From NCBI GenBank assembly GCA_052327205.1, contig CM126222.1, positions 70,184,001 to 70,248,000 on the forward strand: a stretch of 64,000 bases of DNA, in the 5' to 3' direction. Of this stretch, positions 29,468 to 50,232 are shown piece after piece. The notes beneath the pieces are model-generated. The model saw nothing but the letters and a program-made list of their open reading frames with translations. It was not told the DNA's origin and made no database searches. A program made the translations under genes and the position numbers. Source of the DNA: Somniosus microcephalus. Its lineage: Eukaryota. Position 1 is the first letter of the stretch; each line of letters opens with the position of its first letter.

Positions 29468-32464
29468 AATGGCAGGGGGTTGGGAACCTGAGCAGGGAGA
29501 CAGAGGAAAGGAAAACAGGGATAAAAGCAAAAGCTAGGAAGGAGAAAAACAAAAGTGGCAGTCAGAGAAATCAACGGTTTAAATCAAATGTGGCCACAGT
29601 AAATAATAATTCTAATAGGTCTAAGAGCGTTAAAAAAACAAGCCTGAAGGCTTTGTGTCTTAATGCGAGGAGCATTTGTAATAAGGTGGATGAATTGGTT
29701 GCGCAAATAGAGGTAAACGAATACGATTTGGTTGGGATTACAGAAACGTGGCTCAAGGATGGCCAAGACTGGGAACTCAACATCCAGGGGTATTCGATAT
29801 TCAGGAAAGATAGGCAAAAAGGAAAGGGAGGTGGGGTAGCATTACTGGTTAAAGGAGGGATTAATACAATTGTAATGAAGGATATTAGCTCTGATGATGT
29901 GGAATCTGTATGGGTAGAATTGAGAAATACTAAGGGGAAAAAAACATTAGTGGGAGTGGTATATAGACCTACAAACAGTAAGGTGGAGGTTGGGGATGGC
30001 ATTAAAAGGGAAATTAAAGAAGCGTGCAATAAGGGCACAGCAGTAATCATGGGTGACTTTAATCTACATATAGATTGGGCCAACCAAATTAGTAACAATA
30101 CTGTGGAGGAGGAATTCCTGGAGTGTTTACGGGATGGTTTCCTGGACCAATATGTCAAGGAACCAACCAGAGATCAGGCCATCTTAGACTGGGTATTATG
30201 TAACGAGAAAGGATTAATTAGCAATCTTGTTGTACGAGGCCCCTTGGGTTGGAGTGATCATAATATGATCGAATTCTTCATTAAGATGGAGAATGAAGTA
30301 GTTGACTCAGAGACAAGGGTCCTCAATTTAAATAAAGGAAACTACGATGGTCTGAGGAGCGAGTTGGGTAGGATTGAGTGGGGAATGGCGCTCAAAGGGT
30401 TGACGGTGGATAGGCAATGGCAAACATTCAAAGACCGAATGGATGAGCTACAGAATTTGTTCATCCCAGTTTGGCGTAAAAATAAAACAAAAAAGGTGAC
30501 TCAACCGTGGCTAACAAGGGAAATTAGGATAGCATAAGATCCAAGGAGAGGACATATAAATTGGCTAGAAAAAGCAATAATCCTGAGGATTGGGAGCAGT
30601 TTAGGAGTCAACAAAGGAGGACAAAGAGATAATTAAGAAAGGGGGATTAATTAAGAAAGGGAAAATAGAATGAGAGTGTAAGCTAGCAGGGAACATAAAA
30701 ACTGACTGTAAAAGCTTTTATAGATATGTGAAGAGAAAAAGATTAGTGAAGTCAAGCGTAAGTCCCTTACAGTCAGAATCAGGGGAATTTATAATGGGAA
30801 ACAAGGAAATGGCAGACCAACTAAATGCATACTTTGGTTCTGTCTTCACAAAGGAGGACACAAATAACCTCCCAGAGATGCCGGGGAACATAGGGTCTGA
30901 TGAAAGTGAGGAACTGAAAGAAATCAGTATTTGTAGGAAAATGGTGTTAGGAAAATTGATGGGACTGAAGGCCGATAAATCCCCAGGGCCTGATAATCTA
31001 CATCCCAGGGTACTTAAGGAAGTGGCCCTAGAGATAGTAGATGCATTACTGATCATCTTCCAGAACTCGATAGACTCTGGAACGGTACCCATGGATTGGA
31101 GGGTAGCTAATGTTACCCCACTATTCAAAAAAGGTGGTAGAGAAAAAGTGGGGAATTATAGACCGGTAAGCCTGACATCGGTAGTGGGGAAAATGCTAGA
31201 GTCTATTATAAAAGATGTAATAGCAGAGCACTTGGAAAGCAGTGATAGGATCGGACAAAGTCAACATGGATTTACAAAAGGTAAATCATGCTTGACTAAT
31301 CTACTGGAATTTTTTGAGGATGTAACTGGTAAAATAGATAAGGGAGAACCAGTGGATGTGGTGTATTTGGACTTTCAGAAGGCTTTCGATAAGGTCCCAC
31401 ATAAGAGATTAGCGTGCAAAATTAAGGCACATAGGATTGGGGGCAAGTTATTGACTTGGATAGAGAACTGGTTGGCGGACAGAAAGCAAAGAGTTGGAAT
31501 AAACGGGTCGTTTTCCAAGTGGCAGGCAGTGACTAGTGGGGTACCGCAAGGATCGGTCCTAGGACCCCAGCTGTTCACAATATATATTAATGATCTGGAC
31601 GAGGGAATTGGATGTAATATCTCCAAATTTGCAGATGACACAAAGCTGGGCGGGAGGGTAAGCTGCGAGGAGGATGTCGGGAAACTCCAGTACGATTTGG
31701 ACAGGTTGGGAGATTGGGCAGAAACATGGCAAATGCTCTATAATGTGGATAAATGTGAGGTTATCCACGTTGGTGGCAAAAACAGGAAGGCAGATTATTT
31801 GAATGGCAATAGATTGGGAGAAGGAGAAGTGCAAAGAGACCTGGGTGTCCTTGTGCACCAGTCGCTGAAGGTAAGCATGCAGGTGCAGCAGGCGGTTAAG
31901 GCGGCAAATGGTATGTTGGCCTTCGTAGCAAGAGGGTTCGAGTACAGGAACAAGGATGTCTTGCTACAGTTGTACAGGGCCTTGGTGAGACCGCACCTTG
32001 AGTATTGTGTGCAGTTTTGGTCACCTTACTTGAGGAAGGACGTTCTTGCCATGGAGGGAGTGCAGCGAAGATTCACCAGGCTGATACCTGGGATGGCAAG
32101 AATAACGTATGAGGAGAGATTGTGTCGATTGGGCTTATACTCACTGGAGTTTAGAAGATTGAGAGGGGATCTCATCGAAACCTATAAAATTCTGTCAGGT
32201 CTGGACAGACTAGATGCAGGAAGGATGTTTCTGATGGCCGGGGAGTCCAGAACCAGGGGTCATAGTCTAAGGATAAGGGGTAAGCCATTTAGGACTGAAA
32301 TGAGGAGGAATTTCTTTACCCAGAGAGTGGTGAACCTGTGGAATTCTCTGCCACAGAGGGCAGTGGAGGCCAGTTCATTAAATATATTCAAGAAAGAGTT
32401 GGATAGATTTCTTGAGGCTAAAGGGATCAAGGGATATGGGGAAAAGGCAGGGACAGGGTACTGA
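29449..32464 (+). pseudogene. CR1 ORF2 (endonuclease + reverse transcriptase), broken between ~30530 and 30730
   Basis: ORFs 29449..30537 and 30728..32464; the gap has frameshifts, stops and a short duplication (aattaagaaaggg twice). Confidence 0.93.
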
Positions 32465-32779
32465 ATTTGGATGATCAGCCATGATCACATTGAATGGCGG
32501 AGCAGGCTCGAAGGGCCTACTCCTATCTTCTATGTTTCTATGAACGACGCATGAACTGCAGTCGAGGGGTTAGGTACTAATGCTACAAGTGATGTGCGAG
32601 TGCAGGAAGAAATCAGCACCTTACACAACAGAGAACAGAAACTCAGTGTGGGAAATCAAATTCAATGTCCCACTACTGAATGGTACGGTTTATCAGTTGT
32701 TAAAAGTGCTGCTCCACCCCAAATAAAATAAAGAGCAGGTGGCAAGTTGTGCAGTCAGTTAATTGCACTGCACTTGATG

Positions 32780-37536: not shown

Positions 37537-38369
37537 GGACTCGAATTTCCAAGCCCTGTGGAGGCGGGTTTGGAGGCGGGAGTGGTGGGAAAATTGCAGA
37601 ATCGGAGGGCAGGAACCCATCCCGCCCCCAACCCACCTCTGTGCCAATGTCCCAGGAGGCGGGTATCCGACCTGTGCTGGGAGCCGCCTCCCTGAGGCGG
37701 GAAGGGGATTAGTGCCAATTAACTGCCTGTTAACAGGTAGTTAACTGGCAGTTTTTTGCCTAATCCCTATTTTTAGCCCTGAAGTGTGGGCTTCCCGACG
37801 GCTCCAAACCACGCCAAGTTAGCGAGGCGGACCTTCGGTCTGAAGGGGTTGGAGGGGTCGAGATGTATGGTGTGCAGGGTGCATATGTGCAGAGGTAGGT
37901 GTGTGAGGTAAGTGTAAAGTGTTTTAAAGAAGTTTTACTTACCTTTACTTTCTCCTACAGGCTTCCTTCCTTCAGGTCTCGGGAGTCCCTCAGTTCACCG
38001 GCACAGAAAGCAGAATGGCCGCTGAAATGTCAAAAGCTGCAGCATTCTGCTTTCTGATCTGGAGAGATCTCTAACTGAGTCTGAGTAGAAGGACTCAAGT
38101 TAGAAGACAGATTGTCAGTGTTTGACAGCTTCACAGAGCTGTCAAACGCTGATTTTTCATCTGTCAAAAGCTCTTGACAGATGAAATGTCAATCACTGAC
38201 GTCACCAGTAACCAGGTGTCCCTTAATTGGCCTGCTGAGCCCGCTGGGTGGGCTTAAGGTCAATCAAGGGAAAATAGCGTGGGTTGGACACAAGTCGATG
38301 GAGGCGGGACTACAACCCAAAAAGTGGGAGCCCCGCCTCCATCACGTCCCCATTGACAAAATCCAGCCC
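37537..38369. mobile_element. PIF/Harbinger-type MITE, 833 bp
   Basis: Degenerate TIRs GGACTCGAATTT versus GGGCTGGATTTT (9/12); TTG on both flanks; repeated GGAGGCGGG subterminal motifs; internal hairpins. Confidence 0.65.
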
Positions 38370-39179
38370 TTGATCTTTGATGGGACAGAAGCTCTTTTCG
38401 GCATAACCAAATAACCTTTTTGAGTCAAGATTATTCTGTTGTGGTAGAAATTAATTAATTTGCTGCATACATAATAGGATGAAGTATTTCTTTTTAACAG
38501 CACTCTTCTTTCAACCCATTTACAATGTCTATATCTGATATGTGCATTAAAGTACGCAACATTTTCTTTATCTCATTCTCCAGAACATTACAGTTTACTA
38601 CGGTAGCCTTGCGCATTAGAGTTTCAACACTCACGTGCCATGGTGCGGCAGGACATGGGTTTCAATCCGTAACATCTAGTCTAAGATCCCAACATCATCC
38701 ATGCCAACACTAGAAGTATTACAGTCCGTCCCCCATCCTCCCAATTTCAAATCACAGCCTTCAGACAGATATAAAGTTGCATTGGTCAAGCCAAAAGAAA
38801 GGAACAGAGTGATCAAAAATCTACAGGTCTATAACGAGAAGACATTTATTCAAAACAAAATTGCTATGGTTATGAAGACAGCTATAATTAATAATTCCCA
38901 GTATGCTGTGTCTGGTATTCAGCCTTGTTCAAGGTACTGTGGGGCTGGTTTTTAAGCTTTTCTTCTTCTAGGACATGTACTATCAGGTAGACACAAATTC
39001 ACACTGGTCAGACCACAAACAGCATGTAAAAAAACCACTTTTTCCAAAAAGAGACACAAATCATATTTTTCTAAACATTTATAACAATTTTTGTTTCTAA
39101 ACAATTGACTTGGCAACACATTATCTATGGTATACTTTTCATTGCAGTAATAATTCTTGGAATTTAATCAAGTACTCAC

Positions 39180-39288
39180 AGATCATAATGCTGATTCCAC
39201 TTTGGGTCTAGGGTGTTCTTCACTGTGTCTGTAGAATGGCACTGACCTGACCCATCTACTACCACCTTTGCAAAGGGATCAGGGAGTC
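39180..39288 (-). CDS. SMURF2: SMURF2 exon 3 equivalent, C2 domain: (R)LPDPFAKVVVDGSGQCHSTDTVKNTLDPKWNQHYD(L); 109 nt
   Basis: Acceptor gcctttag, donor gtgagt; manual translation matches the SMURF C2 domain; phase 1-2 fits neighbours. Confidence 0.97.
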
Positions 39289-39649
39289 CTAAAGGCAAAC
39301 AAAAAAAAGCATGAAATTTTGTTCAGTTACTATGCCATCTTAATTTTCTCACAGAAAAGGATTACTACAAAAGTAATTCCATTTATTCTTAGAAAGTTAT
39401 ACACTAGAATGACATTTTAACAATACTGTATACAAACCACACTATTTTTATGAAGACTTTTTCCTTCAAAGAAAACTCTCTCTTCTCATCCCCCACAAAA
39501 AAAGTATTTCACCCTCCTCTCCGAAAGACAGCAGTTCATGCTGCAATACAGTTCCAACTCTCAGAACTGTTGTTAATGTTTTTGATGAAGACCTTTCTTC
39601 AAACAGTTTTAAAGATATGTCAGTACCCAAAATTTTTACTTGTCTGTTC

Positions 39650-39742
39650 ACTCCACAAATGTTCACGGACATGCTGTGCGTGTACTTCCAGCATTTTCTG
39701 CTTTTATTTCAGATTTCTAGCATCACCAGTACTTTGCTTTTC
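39650..39742 (+). mobile_element. Penelope-like terminal remnant
   Basis: ttccagcattttctgcttttatttcagatttctagcatc...tactttgctttt, same motif as 21650-21700. Confidence 0.65.
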
Positions 39743-42289
39743 ACCACATAGTACTGCTGTAGCCAACTGCAGAGCATCATTGGCAAAGGTCTGGAAGCAG
39801 ATCACTGCTGTTTGAAGCTGGGCAGCATGAGAAGACCACTAAATAGTAATCTTAACAAAATATAAGACAATTATAGTACACAGTCTATCGCATGACAAAA
39901 TATACAAGGAAATGGCAGCAAGGAGCAATATTGGTGAAGGGATAATGAGCAAGTCCAGTGGGCTGAACAAATACAATGGTCTGCAGTCAGGTAGGGAAAA
40001 CAGTGATTTTGCTCTTAACTTAACTGGAAGTAACTCGACTCCCAAATGTCCCCACAGTACACTCTTGAAGGCCCCATGCAAAAGGTTTAGACTTTTAAAT
40101 CTGTATAAAACTTTTAAAGACATCATGATCTACCTTGACAACAACAGTCATAACTGCCCACGACACACAAGCACTCCCGTTTCAGAAGACTACCATCAAG
40201 TAATTTGTACTTCAGTCATTTTTGTCATGTCTGCCATTGAATTTCCCCAATAACTACTCTGATGCTGTATGAAAATCAATAAAGTGATTGGTGTATGATG
40301 TGTGTGCCATTCTTTACAAGTATGAAATACATTCCAGAACAAATCACATCCCTACTGACAGGAAAGAAGTGAGATCATCTTTTGGAAAAGTCAACAATCT
40401 CATCGTTCCCTCTCCCTAGCAACCATGGGAGAAAATCTATATACATTATTAGATTCACGATGTTCGACTACATTTCATTGAAGAGTCTTATTACCGTGCT
40501 TTGAGCTCTCACCACCGCACCCCCCGCCCCTGACCCTACTCCACCTTCACCCTTGAAACTTCCGGTTCCAAGAGTTCAGTATCGATAGGTCGAACGTTTT
40601 ACTTGTAAAGTTAGGATCCTATCGTTTTTCCCCTGAAACAAAGTGAAAGGAACTTTTATTTTGTACCATTAATTCTACAAATGTTGAAGCAAATGGGTTT
40701 AGTAGGCAGTGCTTTGAATTCAATGCATCAGAAAAGATAATATGTAACTAGATGTTGTCACTGTTTCAAATGTGTGGGTTGTATTTTTTCATGAAAACCA
40801 TTAAGAACCAGAGATGTGTTGGGACAACTAGATTATGAAAAGTAAATGTACAACCTGCTGAACAGAAGAAAATAGAAGAGACAGAAAGACCCCTCCCACC
40901 CCACCAAAAAAACCTAATTTTTAACATATGTAACAATTGCCTTTTTCTGTCATATATGTAATACTCAGGTCATTAAAATGAATTTGGTCCACATTTTTTG
41001 TTGGCCTTCTAACAGTGCATTGCTCCAAGAGGCGCATAGTGCAACTGGTTTTCCCCAATGACAAATGGGCAAGTATTTTCCTTAGAATACTCGGGTATTT
41101 TTAATTGCAGAAATCAAGCAATAAAATCTCAAGTAGTAAAGGTGAGGTATGGGGAAGTTGTCAATAGTTTGTCTTGTTGGAAAAAGTTCCCTCCAACTCA
41201 ACATCTCCTCAAAATTACTATTTTGTATGCTACTCATGCAGCAAGTAAATGTCAAGCTTTTCCATTCCGATGCGATTTCAACCAGAGGAGACTGCCATCT
41301 TTGACTAAATCACATGTATTTCTTAAATTTAAAATCCTGTGATCGTTAAATAAAAAAAAATTCAGTGTAAAATGTGTCTGCCTGTCCTTTAAAATCTAAA
41401 ATTGCAACATTATGACATGACACTGTGGTCATCTTTGTACAGCTATTTTCATACATACAAGAACAGCTGTCCCAAATTCTGAACCAGAAGAACGGTGCTG
41501 CTCAATGACCAGAGCAGTGGCCCACGTGTCAAACACCGTCATTTATCCTCTGCTCGCCGTAGCTCACTTTTATAAAGTAAATTAATCATGACCCCCAACA
41601 CTCAAATATATACTAGAGTGCCCTTTTCTCTATAATTTCTTCCATCATCTTTTGTCCTATACTTGTAGAATTTGTTTCTTAGCACCATCTCTGGGTTCTT
41701 CATAATATTCTGTATATTAATTCAATATGATGTTATATGGCTCCAGTGGGACTTTATTGTTAAAACTAATAAATAAGACTTAAAGACACTCAAAGGCTAT
41801 GATGTACAATTGTGGGCATGAATTTAACTGTGCCACACTTAACTACATCAGGTCAGGGCATGCACATTTAATTATGCACCACTCTGCCTATACATCATTC
41901 GATCCAATTTATAGAGCACTCTAAACACATTATTTTGGTCAAGTCTCCTACGCCAATAGTGAAGTCATGCAACACTTTTCCCTTCCCTACTCACTTTATA
42001 ATGTATTTTTACATAGCGGCCAAAAATATACCGCATAGCAGTCTGCCTCAGTTCTATAGTGAGACGTGGTTTGTAATTTATGTTGTATTTGATGGTGTGA
42101 TTGAGCTAATTTTGCCCAGTTATAGGAAGGGGGGTTTCGGGGGGGGGGGGGGGGGGGGGGGAAAGAAGAGGGGGGAACAGCTAAAAGATTCGAAGAAAGA
42201 GAAAGCGAATAAAAACAATTCTCAGTCGAGTGTTTGTTTTAAGCACTAACCATTAGCAAAACCTTATCTATTGAGCTGGTCTTGCTATT

Positions 42290-42929
42290 CTGTTCACAAC
42301 CTCCGTGTCGTACTGGTCCCCAAGCTGAGCCCGGCCACATATCCTCTCCGTCACAAAGATCACCTACTTCCACCTCCGTAATACTGCCCGTCTCTGGCCC
42401 TGCCACAGCCCATCTGCTGCTGCAAACGTCATCCGTGCCTTTGTTACCTCCAGACTTGACTATTCCAATGCTCTCCTAGCCGGGCTCCCATTTTCCACCC
42501 TCCATAAACTTAAGCTCATCCAAAACTTTGCTGTCCATACGTCTCAGTCGCCCATCGCCCCGTGCTCACTGATTGATATTGGCTCACGGTCCAGGAATGC
42601 ATAGATTTAAGAATTCTCATTCTAGTGTTTAAATCCCTCCATGGCCTCACTCCTCCCTATCTCTGTAACCTCCTCTAGCCCTACAAACCTCCAAGAACTC
42701 TGCGTTCCTCCAACTCGGACCTCTTGTGCATCCCTCGCTTCCTTCGCCACAACATTGGCAGCCGTGCCTTCAGCTGTCTAGGCCATAAACTCTGAAATTC
42801 CCTCCCTAAACCTCTCCGTCTAATGTCTCCTCCTTTCGCTCGGTGTCAATTTTGTCTGATTACGCTCCTGTTAAGTGTTTTGGGACATTTTACTACATTA
42901 AAGGCGCTATATAAATACAAGTTGTTGTT
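42290..42929 (+). mobile_element. L2 LINE 3' fragment
   Basis: FVTSRLDYSNALL motif (tttgttacctccagacttgactattccaatgctctc), typical of L2 ORF2, plus tail. Confidence 0.9.
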
Positions 42930-43619
42930 TTCTAATTAAACAATGCATGAAAGCAGCTCCACTGTTGAACTCAGATGTTCCTCTTGGATCACCCTGTGCT
43001 AACTAATCTTACCATAATGATTATAGGGATCAAGAAGGTCCCATTCCAACCCATGTCGTTTGTTATGATGCATGAGCACTGCAAATGACCAAAGAAACCA
43101 GAACAGGATTTCATTAATCATAAAGGATCATTTATACATCAAACTATGACAACCTTTTTACATTGTTTTGGGTTCTCCAAAAACACACACCAGTTAGAAT
43201 CTTGATTTTTTTTACTACATTGTTCTTGTTCTTAAAAATATTCAAAAGGGACAAAGCTGATCAGGTAACCTTGACTTTAATGTAAGTATTGTACAACTTG
43301 AAGTTTATTCATTGAATGATGTCCCATTAATCCAACAACTTTCAGTAATTACAATTGATAGTCTTCATACCATGAAATGAGGGAGATAGGCTAGCGCACT
43401 CAGTGCTAAATTCCTGATCGCATCCATGTTGCACAGTACAGCAGGTGGTGGACTAATCAGGCGAAATTTCCCTATAGAGTCACATGTGATAATCCCTGGT
43501 GGCCAGCGAGACTGGTGTATAGAGTAGGTCACGCGGATTTGAGAAATGAGAAACTTGTATCAATACTTCATTCCAAAATATGCCACTTGGCCCACTGAGT
43601 TTGTCCATTATAGAAATAC

Positions 43620-43975
43620 ACTGGGGCTCCACCAATCGATTTGTGTGGTGTGCAACTGAACCATATAGACTAGGTAGGTTCCTGGTTCAATCTCTGGTTT
43701 GTGTTGAATTAGTGAGCATCAACTGGCAATACAGTGCTACATTAGGCTACACTGTCCCTGGGCTAGGATGGATATAGAGAAGAAAGCTAGTTGCTATCCA
43801 ATGACTCCTGCTGTAAAGTACATATGAGAACACTGAGTAAAGATAGCATGGGGCTGGGGTGTGATGCCCCCCACAGTTCAATAGCCCACTAATACTCAAT
43901 ATCTAAGTCCACATATGAATGTCAACTAGACCATGTCAGTGGAGGGCTGCCAGTACCCTTGGAACTGTGCCAGAG
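43620..43975 (+). mobile_element. Old tRNA-derived SINE (AmnSINE2/Nin-like, tentative)
   Basis: B-box-like ggttcaatct; gctatccaatgactcctgctgtaaagt and gtgatgccccccacagttcaatagccc core blocks. Confidence 0.65.
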
Positions 43976-44819
43976 TGAGCAAGCAGGGGCTGCTTATGGT
44001 ACGTACTTCCAGGAGAGAACTGCTGGTGGTGGGAGTAAACAAGGGAAGAACAGGAAAGGGAAACAATGAAAAATTGAAACATACAGCTCCATGCAAATCT
44101 AATGACACTATTCAGTCTACACACAGCCACATCAGTAATGGTGAAGTTACTCTACTGAGCAGTTGTCAATAGTTGCTACTGTTCAGTATATCTAAACTCA
44201 TTAGAACACAATCTCTCCAAATACTACCAATTTGGATCAGTTGTTGTAAAGCTGAAGTGCATCAATATCATACCTCAGAAATGTATACACTTGAATTTGA
44301 CTAATGTTATACACTAAATTACAAATAGAATAGCTTTCTGGCAAGTGATTTTTTTTTTAAGCCTACTTTACACTACTTAATGGAATGATATGTAAAAATC
44401 TTTAAAGTGCATTATTATACAACTAATTTTCATTACTTTTAGGGTTATGAATATTGCCAAGATAGTCTCATCTAGTGACATGCAGCTGGAATACTTACGG
44501 AAGAAGTCTTTCTTCACCAAATTCTTAGCACATAATACTAGAAATAAAAAAGGAAAAAAATTACTTAAAATCTGAAACAACATTTAATTTGATTCCAGTA
44601 ACTTAATAAAATGTCCAAGCATTTTAATTAATGTTAATTTAAACAATGCAACTCATTAGATAGTATCAATTATAGATTAAAGAAAACTACAAATGCTGTT
44701 GATCTGAAATCACCACTAGGAAAGAATGCCCTACTAAAAACATTATAGCATTGGACAGAAACTACGTATCGTAAGCAGCCCTTGCTTGCTCACTCTGTGA
44801 TACAGTTCCAAGGGTACTG
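43951..44819. repeat. Inverted repeat pair (43951-44008 / 44760-44819) enclosing SMURF2 exon 2
   Basis: 52 matching positions over ~60 nt, in perfect blocks of 18, 15, 10 and 6 bp. Confidence 0.9.
44499..44537 (-). CDS. SMURF2: SMURF2 coding exon (human exon 2 equivalent), C2 domain: (V)LCAKNLVKKDFF(R); 39 nt, phase 1-1
   Basis: Minus strand reads tttatttctag|TA TTA TGT GCT AAG AAT TTG GTG AAG AAA GAC TTC TTC C|gtaagt. The peptide matches the recalled SMURF2 N-terminus (NLVKK; SMURF1 has NLAKK) and splices in frame to the next exon. Confidence 0.95.
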
Positions 44820-44987
44820 AAAATAAGTTAAATTTATCCCAACTTGGATCACTATTAAATCAATGCCAATACTGTGACTAGCTATCACAGCACTGTAAAA
44901 TCCCAGCTACACTTCATAAACGCTTCTTATTGCCACTGGTGTGAATAGTTTGGAACTACGTTGCATCCATTTAACCTTTTTCTTTTA

Positions 44988-45634
44988 AGATCATAGAATG
45001 GTTACAGCACTGAAGGAGGCCACTCCCACTCCCCCCCACCCTTTCCCTGTAGCCCTGCAATTTTTTTTCCTTCAGGTACTTATCCAACTCCCTTTTGAAA
45101 GCCGTGATTGAGTCTGCCTCCACCACCCTCTCAGGCAGTGCATTTCAGATCCTAACCACTCACTGAGTAAAATAGTTTTTCCTCATGTCGCCTTTGGTTC
45201 TTCTGCCAATCACCTTAAATCTGTGTCCTCTGGTTCTCGACCCTTCTGCCAATGGGAACAGTTTCTCCTCTAACTACTCTGTCCAGACCCATCATGATTT
45301 TGAACACCTCTATCAAATCTCCTCTCAATCTTCTCTGCTCTAAGGAGAACAACCCCAGCTTCTCCAGTCTATCCACGTAACTGAAGTCCCTCATCGCTGG
45401 AAGCATTCTCGTAAATCTTTTCTGCACACTCTCCAAGACCATCACATCCTTCCTAAAGTGCGGTGCCAAGAATTGGACACAAGACTCCAGTTGAGGCCGA
45501 ACCAGTGTTTTATACAGGTTCATCATAATTTCTACGCTTTTGTACTCTATACCTCTATTCATGAAGCCCAGGATGCTGTAAGCTTTAACTGCTTTCTCAA
45601 CCTGCCCTGCCATCTTCAATGATTTGTGCACATA
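44988..45634 (-). mobile_element. CR1 3' fragment (type B)
   Basis: ORF 45215..45685 contains LYKTLVRPQLESCVQF...RLEKLGLFSLEQRRLRGDLI; closely similar to 973-1456. Confidence 0.92.
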
Positions 45635-46131
45635 TTTAAGAATCTTATTTAAAATACATCCATTCTGTAATCCATATAGCATCAAATAGCAACAATGTAC
45701 TCAAGGCATATGTTTGTTTTCAAGCACAGCAGTGATCAATTGGACACAAGAAGCTGAATTCTGTATCGCCCAATGAATGGGTGTTGTGTTTTTTTAATAA
45801 AATACTTAGAAATAATGACTACTGATTACATGACCATGAAACAGAGTGCCAAATTACAAAGACAGTCACACCAGTAAGGAGTAAGTTTCTGCAGAACAGC
45901 AGAGAATTCACAAAGCTATAGGAGCCATCACAGTATTGATATTAAACCCTTGTCCGTGACGTGCTGATGTGTATTTCTCCGGTCATTGACAGCACTCCTG
46001 AACATAAACAATCCAATCTCCAGCAAACTGATGGCAGCACATCAACAAGATTTTCGTGGGTCTTGCAATCTGCCAGCTCTTCTATTAATTGTCTGTTCAA
46101 CACGGTGCTGGTTCAATGCATTAGTGTGTTA

Positions 46132-48010
46132 CAGAAAAAGATTGGTGAAGTCAAGCGTAGGTCCCTTGTGATCAGAATCAGGGGAATTTATAATGGGGAA
46201 CAAAGAAATGGCTGACCAATTAAATACATATTTTGGTTCTGTCTTCACAAAGGAGGACACAAATAACCTCCCAGAGATGTCAGGGAACATAGGGTCTGAT
46301 GCAAGGGAGGAACTGAAAGAAATCAGTATTTGTAGGGAAATGGTGTTAGGGAAATTGATGGGATTGAAGGCCGATAAATCCCCAGGGCCTGATAATCTAC
46401 ATCCTAGGGTACTTAAGGAAGTGGCCCTAGAAATAGTTGATGCTTTGCTGATCATCTTCCAGCATTCGATGTAATCTGGAACAGTACCCATGGATTGGAG
46501 GGTAGCTAATGTTACCCCACTATTTAAAAAAGGTGGTAGAGAGAAAACGGGGAATTACAGACCGGTAAGCCTGACATCAGTAGTGGGGAAAATGCTCGAG
46601 TCCATTATAAAAGATGTAATAGCAGAGCACTTGGAAAACAGTGACAGGATCGGGCAAAGTCAACATGGATTTACAAAAGGTAAATCGTGCTTGACTAATC
46701 TACTGGAATTTTTTTGAGGATGTAACTAGTAAAATAGATAAGGGAGAACCAGTGGATATGGTGTATTTGGACTTTCAGAAGGCTTTCGATAAGGTCCCGC
46801 ATAAGAGATTAGCGTGTAAAGTTAAGGCACATGGGATTGGGGGCAAGGTATTGACTTGGATAGAGAACTGGTTGGTAGACAGAAAGCAAAGAGTTGGAAT
46901 AAACGGGTCTTTTTCCGAGTGGCAGGCAGTGACTAGTGGGGTACCGCAGGGATCGGTCCTTGGACCCCAGCTATTCACAATATATATTAATGATCTAGAC
47001 AAGGAAACTAGATGTAATATCTCCAAATTTGCAGACGACACAAAGCTGGGTGGGCATGTGTGCTGTGAGGAGGATGCCGAGAAACTGCGGCGCAGGCACG
47101 ATGGGCCGAAGGGCCTCTTTCTGTGCTGTAAAACTCTATGACTCTATGACTTGGACAGGTTGGGTGATTGGGCAGAAGCATGGCAGATGCAATATAACGT
47201 GGATAAATGTGAGGTTATCCACTTTGGTGTCAAAAACAGGAAGGCAGATTATTATCTGAATGGCAATAGGTTGGGAGAAGGGGAAGTGCAACGAGAGCTG
47301 GGTGTCCTTGTGCACCAGTCGCTGAAGGTAAGTATGCAGGTGCAGCAGGCGGTTAAGAAGGCAAATGGCATGTTGGCTTTCGTAGCGAGAGGGTTTGAGT
47401 ACAGGAACGCGGATGTCTTGCTGCAGTTGTACAGGGCCTTGGTGAGACCACACCTTGAGTATTGTGTGCAGTTTTGGTCGCCTTATCTGAGGAAGGATGT
47501 TCTTGCCATGGAAGGAGTTCAGCGAAGATTCACCAGGCTGATACCTGGGATGGCAGGAATGACGTATGAGGAGAGATTGGGTTGATTGGGCTTGCACTCG
47601 CTGGAGTTTAGAAGAATGAGAGGGGATCTCATTGAAACTTATAAAATTCTGACAGGACTGGACAGACTAGATGCAGGAAGGATGTTCCCGATGGTCGGGG
47701 AGTCCAGAACCAGGGGTCACAGTCTAAGGATAAGGGGTAAGCCATTGAGGACAGAGATGAGGAGGAATTTCTTCACCCAGAGAGTGGTGAACCTGTGGAA
47801 TTCTCTACCACAGAAGGCAGTAGAGGCCAATACATTAAATATATTCAAGAAGGAGTTGGATATATTTCTTAAGGCTAAAGGGATCAAGGGGTATGGGGAG
47901 AAAGCAGGGACCGGGTACTGAATTTGGATGATCAGCCATGATCGCATTGAATGGCGGAGCAGGCTCGAGGGGCCGAATGGCCTACTCCTGCTCCTATCTT
48001 CTATGTTTCT
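46132..48010 (+). mobile_element. CR1 LINE, 5'-truncated, same subfamily as 29339-32542
   Basis: ORF fragments 46193..47921 are nearly identical in translation to ORF 30728..32464; stops and frameshifts; type A tail. Confidence 0.96.
47089..47150 (+). mobile_element. Ultra-short CR1/SINE type B tail inserted into the CR1
   Basis: ggcgcaggcacgatgggccgaagggcctctttctgtgctgtaaaactctatgactctatgac is absent from the paralogous position (~31688) of the other copy. Confidence 0.85.
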
Positions 48011-48248
48011 GTTTATTTTACAGCGCAAAATAAGGTGATATTGCGAAAGCACTGAACAACGGTACTGGCTCTGTCAATTTATCAGTTTCCCATCACCCTA
48101 ACCAGCCAGTAAAGTAATTTCTCTCAAGTTCAAAGCTCACAGTGCATTGCTATATGTGATACACAGAATAAATGGTCCCCTTTTTCAGAATATAGGGGTG
48201 CAGTGCCTAATGACAATATAAATGTGTGAAAGCGGTGTACAGAGATAG

Positions 48249-48308
48249 TTTTAGTGTCATCCTCCAAGGGTATATGGTTTTAGTGTCACTCTCCAAGGGT
48301 ATATGGTA
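48249..48308. repeat. 29-bp tandem duplication
   Basis: ttttagtgtca(tc/ct)ctccaagggtatatgg twice. Confidence 0.85.
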
Positions 48309-49327
48309 AAAGGGGTATAAAATTAGGTACATTTAAACTTAACCTACTTGTATGTGGAGCATGTGAGAAATACTGTTTGCTGATCCCAACAGTGTTCATG
48401 GTAGATTCCAGACCTAGGATCAGTAAAGTTCTTAAAATCCATATTTGATGTAGAGAGTTAAGAAAATGCATGGAGCGCCAAAGAAATGAATCACCCTTTT
48501 CTTAATCAAAAGTCCTGACATTTAGCAGCAAGATCCATTTTTTACAAACACAAAAGCTCAGAACTCATCTATGAGAGATTGCATTAACACCCTGCAAATC
48601 AGTGAAATCTACTCTGAAAATTCTACAAAAGAAACCAATTTCAATCTGTTTGCAACGTTTCAACCATTTCTGACCCACACACAGGCTGACGATGCTTTAT
48701 TCTTAAATGCTGTAGCGGAACCAAACAGGTTAACTAAGCGCAGTAAGTAGCAGACAACGAACATGAATTTTGAACTAATAGCATCCTACATGTAGTTGGT
48801 TACTGTAGCTGTCTAGGAAACAAAACCTAACACATGTTCGGAGTTGATGTACCTTGAGGAAAGCCCAGGATACATGGATAGACTAACTTTAAATAGTATA
48901 ATCTGTCAGGCTAAGAGAATTACACTTTCATAGCCACTGTACAATGACTTTGCAGCTTGTCTGGCTGAGGATACCTGGGCATATCATTCAAGCATGCCCA
49001 CAGAAACCTGAAAAGAGCATATCTGGAGCTGTCCATAAGCTGTCTAACCTGAAAGAATAATGAGAGATGCGGGGCAGGGAACGAAACAACACTGAATTGT
49101 AAGGGAAAAAAATACAAGCATGTAAATTCCGTACAAAAGCAAATCCTCTTACAATTCAGCATGGATTGTGATAAATGAGGTTCTCATCAACCCAGTTTGT
49201 ATGTTTTAAGCAGTTTCATCATAGTCAGGTTGACTAATTCACTGTTTTCAGGGGAAAATGTTTTTGGCTTTGCGTAGTCCTATGTGGGGGGAGGGGAAGA
49301 GAGAGAAAGGTGGGTTAGCTTAAGTAT

Positions 49328-49400
49328 AAAATAACAGAAAACTCTGGAAAAACTCAGCAGGCCAGGCAGCATCGGTGGAGAGAGAAAGAGAGTTAACGTT
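49328..49400 (-). mobile_element. Penelope-like terminal remnant
   Basis: aacagaaaactctggaaaaactcagcaggccaggcagcatcggtggagagagaaagagagttaacgtt, reverse of the 21603-21670 motif. Confidence 0.7.
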
Positions 49401-49419
49401 AGTTTAAGTATGCCTCGTG

Positions 49420-50232
49420 CAATGTTGTCCAATACATTAGCCACATATGGCTATTTGGGAATCCAGAAGTGGCTAATTGCATTTTTGATTAGTAAATTAA
49501 AAAATGAGTAATAGACAGTTATTGAACATGTGCAATTTAACTGTTTTGTGCATTTATTGGTAAAATGGCAAGACGAAAAGCAGAATGAGAGTGTGTTTTT
49601 TGATCATTGTGTGCATTTTCTTCCTTGTTCACTGCTCATTAGTTATCTGCTAAAATGGTGTCTAACACGAGTGAAAATGCGGGCCTTCAGCACCATGGAA
49701 ACACCAATAAACATTGTATGGAGAAGGAAGCGGTGGTCATCGTGATCAGCACAACTAGAATAATCGCTCCAGGCCAGACGAGGAAATCAATCCCGACTAA
49801 TAACGAGCAACTCCCAACCGAGCACTTCATGCCAAAGGACAAGCAGCATCCAACCATGTTCTGGACGGCGAGCAGGGGAGGGCCTGGGTGGGTCTGGGTC
49901 TGGACGGGAGCGGGCCTGGCGCGTCTCATTGCTGAGAATGTTGACTCGCACAATCACTCTGATAAAGTCCCAACTGCTGGACACAAAGCTAGAAGCTGCA
50001 CCAAGGTGTGCCGTGTCTGATAAATTCAGGCCAGAGTTCCAAACTTTGGTGAAAGAGAAAGATTGCAATGTTTTCCACTGAATGGTGGTATATGTTTCAA
50101 TAAATATACACGTGAAGTACATTTACCCTGTATTGTGTCTGACATTTTCTACTAAAATTAGTGCAGGCGGCTAACACAGTGTCGCTGTGGCCACACCTGT
50201 GGCTAGTCAGCAATTTCGATTGGACAATGCAG
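49420..50232 (+). mobile_element. Internally deleted hAT (Charlie/MER3-like) DNA transposon, 813 bp
   Basis: TIR cores TTGTCCAAT / ATTGGACAA; 8-bp TSD GCCTCGTG / GCCTAGTG (7/8); subterminal agccac/gtggct motifs; transposase-like C-terminus at 49965-50081. Confidence 0.82.

What the first reader, a model, noticed from the sequence alone, without database searches (positions are those of the whole stretch)
43951..44819. A ~60-bp inverted repeat brackets the 39-nt in-frame SMURF2 exon 2: candidate RNA-structure switch for exon skipping
Seen: arm A (43951-44008) CAGTACCCTTGGAACTGT-GC-CAGAGTGAGCAAGCA-G-GGGCTGCTTA-T-G-G-TACGTA and the reverse complement of arm B (44760-44819) CAGTACCCTTGGAACTGT-ATCA-CAGAGTGAGCAAGCA-A-GGGCTGCTTA-C-G-A-TACGTA match at 52 positions. 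They enclose a 751-nt loop holding exon 2 and both its splice sites. Arm A continues the 3' end of an old SINE. Arm B is an isolated copy with no SINE body around it, and the arms look much more alike than the decayed SINE copies do to each other. Exon 2 is phase 1-1 and a multiple of 3. Established (from memory): a SMURF2 isoform lacking exon 2 has been described in mammals, and this exon carries the FF residues of the C2-HECT autoinhibitory surface. Inference: pairing in the pre-mRNA could loop the exon out. Three mismatches are A-C type in the sense transcript, the geometry ADAR favours.
Basis: partly seen in the sequence, partly recalled or inferred. Interest (0 to 1): 0.7.

Follow-up and report, generated by a model that had tools for sequence, protein, structure and literature searches.

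The report
Local inverted copy around SMURF2 exon
Two near-matching 57-base stretches face each other across a small exon of a shark SMURF2 gene; one is likely a backwards copy of the other left by DNA repair, a common kind of scar in this genome, and although they are predicted to pair in the unspliced RNA, no effect on splicing is shown.

Summary
The arms are real: 52 of 60 columns, around the 39-nt in-frame exon 2. Arm A lies inside the tail of an old SINE copy that has a private 20-nt insert. Arm B carries the same insert, has no SINE flanks and occurs nowhere else in G000. So arm B is a local inverted copy, not a dispersed repeat. Such pairs are a class here: 10 private pairs with 50-109-nt arms under 2 kb apart in 1.184 Mb, almost none further apart. 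About 0.2-0.5% of small exons would be bracketed by chance. Changes since the copy favour pairing of the wrong strand (antisense -102.6, sense -88.5 kcal/mol). The RNA runs were uninformative; distant relatives were not examined. Verdict: likely a decaying templated duplication that may cause some skipping; a selected switch is unsupported. The scan noted similar cases on other DNA.

The parts
43639..44049 (+). Old SINE copy in SMURF2 intron 2, antisense to the transcript; about 75% identical to the family consensus. The name SacSINE1-like is recalled and was not tested against a library.
   Evidence: nhmmer profile from G000 copies, E 1e-55, model 57-443; identity 0.749, JC 0.31; 7 strong copies in the window
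43951..44008 (+). Arm A, the likely donor; core 43951-44005; 490 nt downstream of the exon 2 donor in the transcript
   Evidence: SINE sequence continues on both sides
43986..44005 (+). About 20-nt insert private to this SINE copy; it completes a 6-bp fold-back (43981-43986 with 43990-43995)
   Evidence: 41 other copies are 45-64 nt over this segment, median 54, none with the insert; fold-back read from the sequence
44499..44537 (-). SMURF2 exon 2, 39 nt, phase 1-1, residues 18-31 including F29 and F30
   Evidence: role of F29/F30/R31 from PMC7808752 passages
44538..44560 (-). Polypyrimidine tract and AG of the exon 2 acceptor; a 4-nt insertion allele lies here in organism B
44760..44819 (-). 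Arm B, the likely inserted inverted copy; core 44763-44819; in intron 1, about 220 nt upstream of the acceptor; no SINE flanks
   Evidence: only two matches in G000, itself and arm A; profile hit only to model 373-407, E 0.45; score 81 against arm A versus at most 20 for 41 other copies
39180..39288 (-). SMURF2 exon 3 (109 nt), the acceptor a skipped transcript would use

Best explanation
Arm B is likely a one-off inverted copy of about 57 bases from the SINE tail in intron 2, patched into intron 1 during DNA repair or replication, and both arms are likely decaying without selection for pairing. Steps: (1) an old SINE inserted in intron 2 (shown by homology). (2) Its tail gained a 20-nt insert with a fold-back (insert shown; snap-back origin inferred). 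(3) The tail with the insert was copied backwards about 750 bases away (shared private features shown; direction and repair mechanism inferred). (4) Each arm then mutated independently (shown for the SINE part against the consensus). The arms are predicted to pair in the pre-mRNA with exon 2 in the loop, so some skipping as a by-product is possible, but it is untested.
For: Arm B shares the insert and other derived changes with arm A; alignment score 81 versus at most 20 for 41 other copies. It is single-copy in G000, also by an exact-pattern scan with 2 mismatches, control 0. Ten private short inverted pairs with 100-2000 nt spacers lie in 1.184 Mb. By the strict count there are 9 under 2 kb against 2 between 2 and 200 kb. 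One of them is in another SMURF2 intron with no exon inside; 1 of 19 mapped SMURF2 exons is bracketed. Arm B keeps the family spacing where arm A lost 2 nt, so both changed after the copy. The antisense duplex is 14 kcal/mol more stable than the sense one. One of 3 differences from organism B in 2116 nt falls in an arm, and this assembly has the pair-breaking state. The same class is described in humans (PMC4617611 passages).
Against: Retention and compensatory change in more distant sharks were not examined, so selection is not excluded. The exon is a good target: in frame, and its loss removes F29/F30. The predicted duplex is strong (-88.5 kcal/mol; -95.1 with the organism B allele). The chance of bracketing is low for any one exon: 0.26% (1 kb) to 0.59% (2 kb), counting this pair. 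The strand bias rests on 3-4 mismatches, and one arm difference among 3 has p about 0.16. Half of the background sample surrounds the window.
Confidence: 0.7

Rival explanations
1. Same origin, but the duplex has a real, unselected effect: it loops exon 2 out in a measurable share of transcripts or is edited by ADAR, as the accidental Tbxt insRCS2 insertion did in mice.
For: Predicted pairing with P near 1. In mice a 220-bp inverted insertion from the next intron made such a pair, and the authors report skipping with non-Alu pairs (PMC10901737 passages). Exon 2 is already skippable in other vertebrates (7 of 247 stored proteins).
Against: The longest perfect helices are 18, 15, 10 and 6 bp. 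Solnick and Lee are cited as needing more than 50 nt of perfect complementarity in vivo (second-hand, PMC2275289 passage). Splice-site accessibility is unchanged with or without the arms in the fold model.
Confidence: 0.17
2. A selected RNA-structure switch: the lineage kept the pair to make an uninhibited SMURF2 lacking exon 2, converging on the mammalian isoform.
For: In-frame exon with the autoinhibitory FF; a mammalian isoform with a reported function; both arms present in organism B.
Against: About 7 changes in 57 columns, none compensatory as far as two arms and a consensus can show. Mismatches are A-C rather than G-U on the sense strand. The class is common. No chondrichthyan exon-2-less model was among the proteins seen, though clusters hide isoforms.
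Confidence: 0.08
3. Arm B is the remnant of a second, opposite SINE insertion, made alike to arm A by gene conversion.
For: The family is abundant, 7 strong copies in 64 kb, and its first 35 or so bases match the family tail.
Against: No family signal on either side of arm B; it ends near the end of arm A's private insert rather than at the family's 3' end.
Confidence: 0.04
4. Assembly artefact.
For: None specific.
Against: An independently assembled 2116-nt contig of run X3 (organism B, another sample of the same study code as the best holders) spans both arms with 3 differences; the arms differ at 7-8 columns.
Confidence: 0.01

Closest known systems
'Inverted Dup' structural variants, 1000 Genomes phase 3 (PMC4617611; passages read)
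   Same: A stretch under 1 kb copied in inverted orientation within 5 kb of the other copy, not by retrotransposition.
   Different: Those are young human polymorphisms seen with the empty allele; this one is older (about 10% arm divergence) and no empty site was seen.
Mouse Tbxt insRCS2 and human TBXT AluY-AluSx1 loop-out (PMC10901737; passages read)
   Same: An inverted intronic pair flanks one exon; insRCS2 arose by an accidental inverted copy from the next intron at a CRISPR cut site.
   Different: There the arms are 220-297 bp and skipping was measured; here 57 bp with 7 defects and no measurement.
Inverted Alu pairs flanking skippable exons (bioRxiv 10.1101/2025.03.07.642063; abstract and outline)
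   Same: SINE-derived inverted sequence on both sides of an exon.
   Different: There two independent insertions of about 300 nt; here one SINE plus a short local copy of its tail.
Class 2 templated sequence insertions (PMC5110952; abstract) and synthesis-dependent MMEJ (PMC2943611; search listing)
   Same: A patch templated from other genomic DNA, without a poly(A) tail; a fold-back inside the insert.
   Different: Class 2 donors are described as distant; this donor is 0.75 kb away. Junction features cannot be read without the empty site.
Mammalian SMURF2 delta-E2 isoform (Dornhoff 2012, seen only as cited in PMC10920915)
   Same: The same exon would be lost, joining exon 1 to exon 3 in frame.
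   Different: Not shown in this species. Such models occur in mammals and a catfish; their flanking introns were not examined.

Membership tests
Local inverted duplication (Inverted Dup) | Copy under 1 kb, inverted, within 5 kb of its source | tested here: met
   57-60 nt, 751 nt apart
Local inverted duplication (Inverted Dup) | The copy derives from the local source, not from a dispersed family | tested here: met
   Shares a private insert; only two matches in G000
Local inverted duplication (Inverted Dup) | Empty ancestral site in another allele or species | not tested
   Organism B has both arms; more distant relatives were not seen
Inverted pair of two independent SINE insertions (Alu-type) | Both arms are separate family copies | tested here: not met
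   Arm B has no SINE body and matches arm A far better than any of 41 copies
Exon loop-out RNA structure | Complementary arms in both flanking introns able to pair | tested here: met
   Predicted only
Exon loop-out RNA structure | Skipped isoform observed in the species | tested here: inconclusive
   Runs X20 and X21 gave no depth on exon 3
Exon loop-out RNA structure | Conservation of both arms with compensatory changes | tested here: inconclusive
   Only organism B seen: one arm difference, not compensatory
Exon loop-out RNA structure | Skipping depends on the arms (deletion and compensatory rescue) | not testable with these tools
   Needs a minigene
ADAR substrate | A-to-G differences in RNA against DNA within the arms | tested here: inconclusive
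   No RNA depth on arm B and under 1x near arm A
SacSINE1 (Deu-SINE) | Homology to the SacSINE1 consensus with tRNA head and Deu domain | not testable with these tools
   No repeat library held. Length (about 450 nt) and 72-75% copy identity agree with PMC5499810 passages; the name is recalled.

The most novel reading that the evidence does not exclude
A repair-made 57-bp inverted copy of a SINE tail was kept by this shark lineage to loop out SMURF2 exon 2 and yield a ligase without its autoinhibitory FF surface, converging on the mammalian delta-E2 isoform. More widely, tens of thousands of such short local inverted copies (extrapolated from about 1 per 130 kb) would be a standing source of new exon-skipping events in shark genomes.
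Probability: 0.08. Interest if true: 0.6.

Novelty: new member of a known kind. Interest (0 to 1): 0.22.

Why it matters
As it stands it is one more local inverted duplication, a known mutation class. Its use is as a test case: it sits near the arm length cited as the threshold for in vivo loop-out (about 50 bp), around an exon whose loss has a known biochemical meaning, and two natural alleles differ by one base pair. If skipping depends on the arms, short repair scars can create regulatory isoforms without a second transposon. The background count also tells the scan how often such bracketing arises by chance in this genome.

Tried and rejected
RNA evidence: no RNA holder was listed by the index. 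Raw RNA runs X20 and X21 (24% and 31% read) gave zero depth on exon 3 and about one read's worth on exon 2 in X20, while repeats swamped the tables. This says nothing on skipping or editing; human-like reads are also filtered. Run X15 (organism F, RNA by guess) has a contig of depth 76.7 over exon 3, and depth 16 in the exon 2 bin fits about 42 nt of the same contig. That suggests inclusion, but it is inferred, contigs drop rare forms, and arm B was not covered. Organisms C, D, E and G hold 6-28% of the words; their arms were not seen, so these shares are no evidence. Rfam: no match at E 1 in 43000-45100. No local source for the 20-nt insert in 38000-50000 apart from the arms (best score 9 of 20). 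The identity figures had an offset bug and were replaced. The original papers of Dornhoff 2012 and Solnick and Lee 1987 were not read. Paper searches for SMURF2 exon 2 splice variants and for SMURF2 with shark and splicing listed nothing on this element; only listings were seen, and subscription papers are largely not covered. A staggered-break inversion was rejected by reasoning: it would flip exon 2 and give permuted, not matching, arms.

Full report
Observation. The window's self-BLAST aligns 43951-44008 with the reverse complement of 44760-44819 at 52 of 60 columns, E 4e-12. Between them lies a 39-nt exon, 44499-44537 on the minus strand, with canonical ends. The gene is SMURF2: exon 3 translates identically to PDB 2jqz, and a ray SMURF2 protein maps exon by exon over the region. 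Exon 4 is 100% identical to chondrichthyan proteins, so the genome is shark-like. Exon 1 lies about 113 kb upstream in G000. It encodes 17 residues plus one base, so exon 2 holds F29 and F30, and skipping it keeps the frame. In the transcript arm B comes first, about 220 nt before the acceptor; arm A lies 490 nt after the donor.

What the arms are. A profile built from 57 G000 loci gives a SINE of about 450 nt whose copies are a median 72% identical to consensus (54 copies of 200 nt or more), with 7 strong copies in the window. One spans 43639-44049, 75% to consensus, JC 0.31. These figures fit SacSINE1 as described in PMC5499810 (passages), but that name is recalled, not tested. Arm A is inside this copy's tail. 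It contains a 20-nt insert found in none of 41 other copies covering the segment, after which the family sequence resumes. The insert completes a 6-bp fold-back. Arm B has the same insert and scores 81 against arm A, where the best of the 41 copies scores 20. It has no family signal in its flanks. DNA searches and an exact-pattern scan of G000 find only the two arms. So arm B is a local copy of this one SINE copy. The direction A to B is inferred from the flanks; the insert could also have moved the other way in a separate step.

History after the copy. Against the consensus, arm A lost 2 nt where arm B keeps the family spacing, and arm B has its own substitutions. Arm-to-arm divergence is about 0.10, or 0.05 per arm, about one sixth of the SINE copy's 0.31 if neutral; this is a rough inference from 5 substitutions. 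A contig of organism B spans both arms with 3 differences in 2116 nt, which excludes an assembly artefact. The chance that at least one of 3 falls in the arms is 0.16, so this is weak, but it is no sign of constraint. A-C on the sense strand is G-U on the antisense strand: the antisense duplex is predicted at -102.6 kcal/mol, the sense one at -88.5. Selection for the sense duplex would be expected to leave the opposite pattern (inference, 3-4 sites).

Background. I scanned 1.184 Mb of G000: 584 kb around the window and three 200-kb blocks elsewhere. Of 41 inverted pairs with at least 60 bits and 100-2000 nt spacers, 10 were private, meaning not explained by repeats in the sample. Their arms are 50-109 nt and 80-99% alike; this pair is one of them and ranks among the weaker. 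Five of the 10 lie in the 600 kb away from the window. A stricter all-against-all count finds 9 under 2 kb and 2 between 2 and 200 kb, so the class is truly local. A 39-nt exon would fall inside such a loop at 0.26% (loop up to 1 kb) to 0.59% (up to 2 kb) of positions counting this pair, about 0.2-0.5% without it, and inside any inverted pair at 1-3%. Among 19 mapped SMURF2 exons only exon 2 is bracketed, while another private pair sits in a SMURF2 intron with no exon inside. For a gene of this size the chance of one such hit is roughly 4-10% (inference). Private direct pairs are at least as common (16 of 73).

Function. The arms are predicted to pair with P near 1, without changing the local accessibility of either splice site. 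Loop-out by non-Alu inverted pairs is established: in mouse Tbxt a 220-bp inverted copy from the next intron arose at a CRISPR cut site and formed such a pair (PMC10901737 passages). A cited threshold for in vivo effects is more than 50 nt of perfect complementarity (second-hand, PMC2275289); here the perfect runs are 18, 15, 10 and 6 bp, so the case is borderline. F29, F30 and R31 form the C2-HECT autoinhibitory contact (PMC7808752 passages), and a delta-E2 variant is reported in CD4+ T cells (review passage, PMC10920915). Of 247 stored proteins, 101 show exons 1-2-3 and 7 show exon 1 joined to exon 3. Those 7 are from rodents, pig, macaque, a marsupial and a catfish. None is chondrichthyan, but 90% clusters hide isoforms and only 15 of 440 members of the main cluster were listed. 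The RNA runs of this species did not cover the exons, so skipping and editing remain open, as does conservation beyond organism B.

Comparison and verdict. It meets two of three features of a local inverted duplication as in PMC4617611 (passages); the empty site is unseen. It fails the test for two independent SINE insertions. It may work like the Tbxt pair, but membership of the loop-out class is not shown. Earlier notes of this scan on other shark and vertebrate genes reached the same reading and gave two paper leads; they are not independent support. I put 0.70 on a decaying duplication with little effect, 0.17 on a real but unselected effect, and 0.08 on a selected switch. New member of a known kind; interest 0.22. 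No supplements were read.

Noticed in passing
L097:8759-9541 (G000:C21:70182759-70183541): A second private inverted pair (67 columns, 85%, 655-nt loop) in another SMURF2 intron, with no mapped exon inside.
   Followed up: yes
window 44558: One of two haplotype contigs of organism B has a 4-nt insertion in the exon 2 polypyrimidine tract. On the transcript strand it adds an AG about 21 nt before the acceptor; if used it would extend the exon in frame (inference).
   Followed up: no
window 43427-43675: A contig of organism F matches this intronic stretch with 12 differences and a 9-nt insertion in 258 nt; 43380-43640 is single-copy in G000 and has no Rfam match. Possibly a conserved non-coding element beside the SINE head.
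   Followed up: partly
G000 blocks on C21, C24, C5, C15 (L078-L177): Private short inverted duplications occur about once per 120-130 kb, with arms mostly 50-71 nt and spacers 137-1524 nt, from 80% to 99% alike, so the process seems to be continuing.
   Followed up: partly
proteins P0027, P0127, P0134: Narcine SMURF2 models join other first exons to exon 2, and a Mobula SMURF1 model (P0190) has extra residues between exons 2 and 3; the 5' end of these genes seems variable in gene models.
   Followed up: no
window 30734-32539 and 46133-48010: Two 1.9-kb direct copies, 89% alike, with a LINE-like reading frame, on either side of exons 2 and 3.
   Followed up: no
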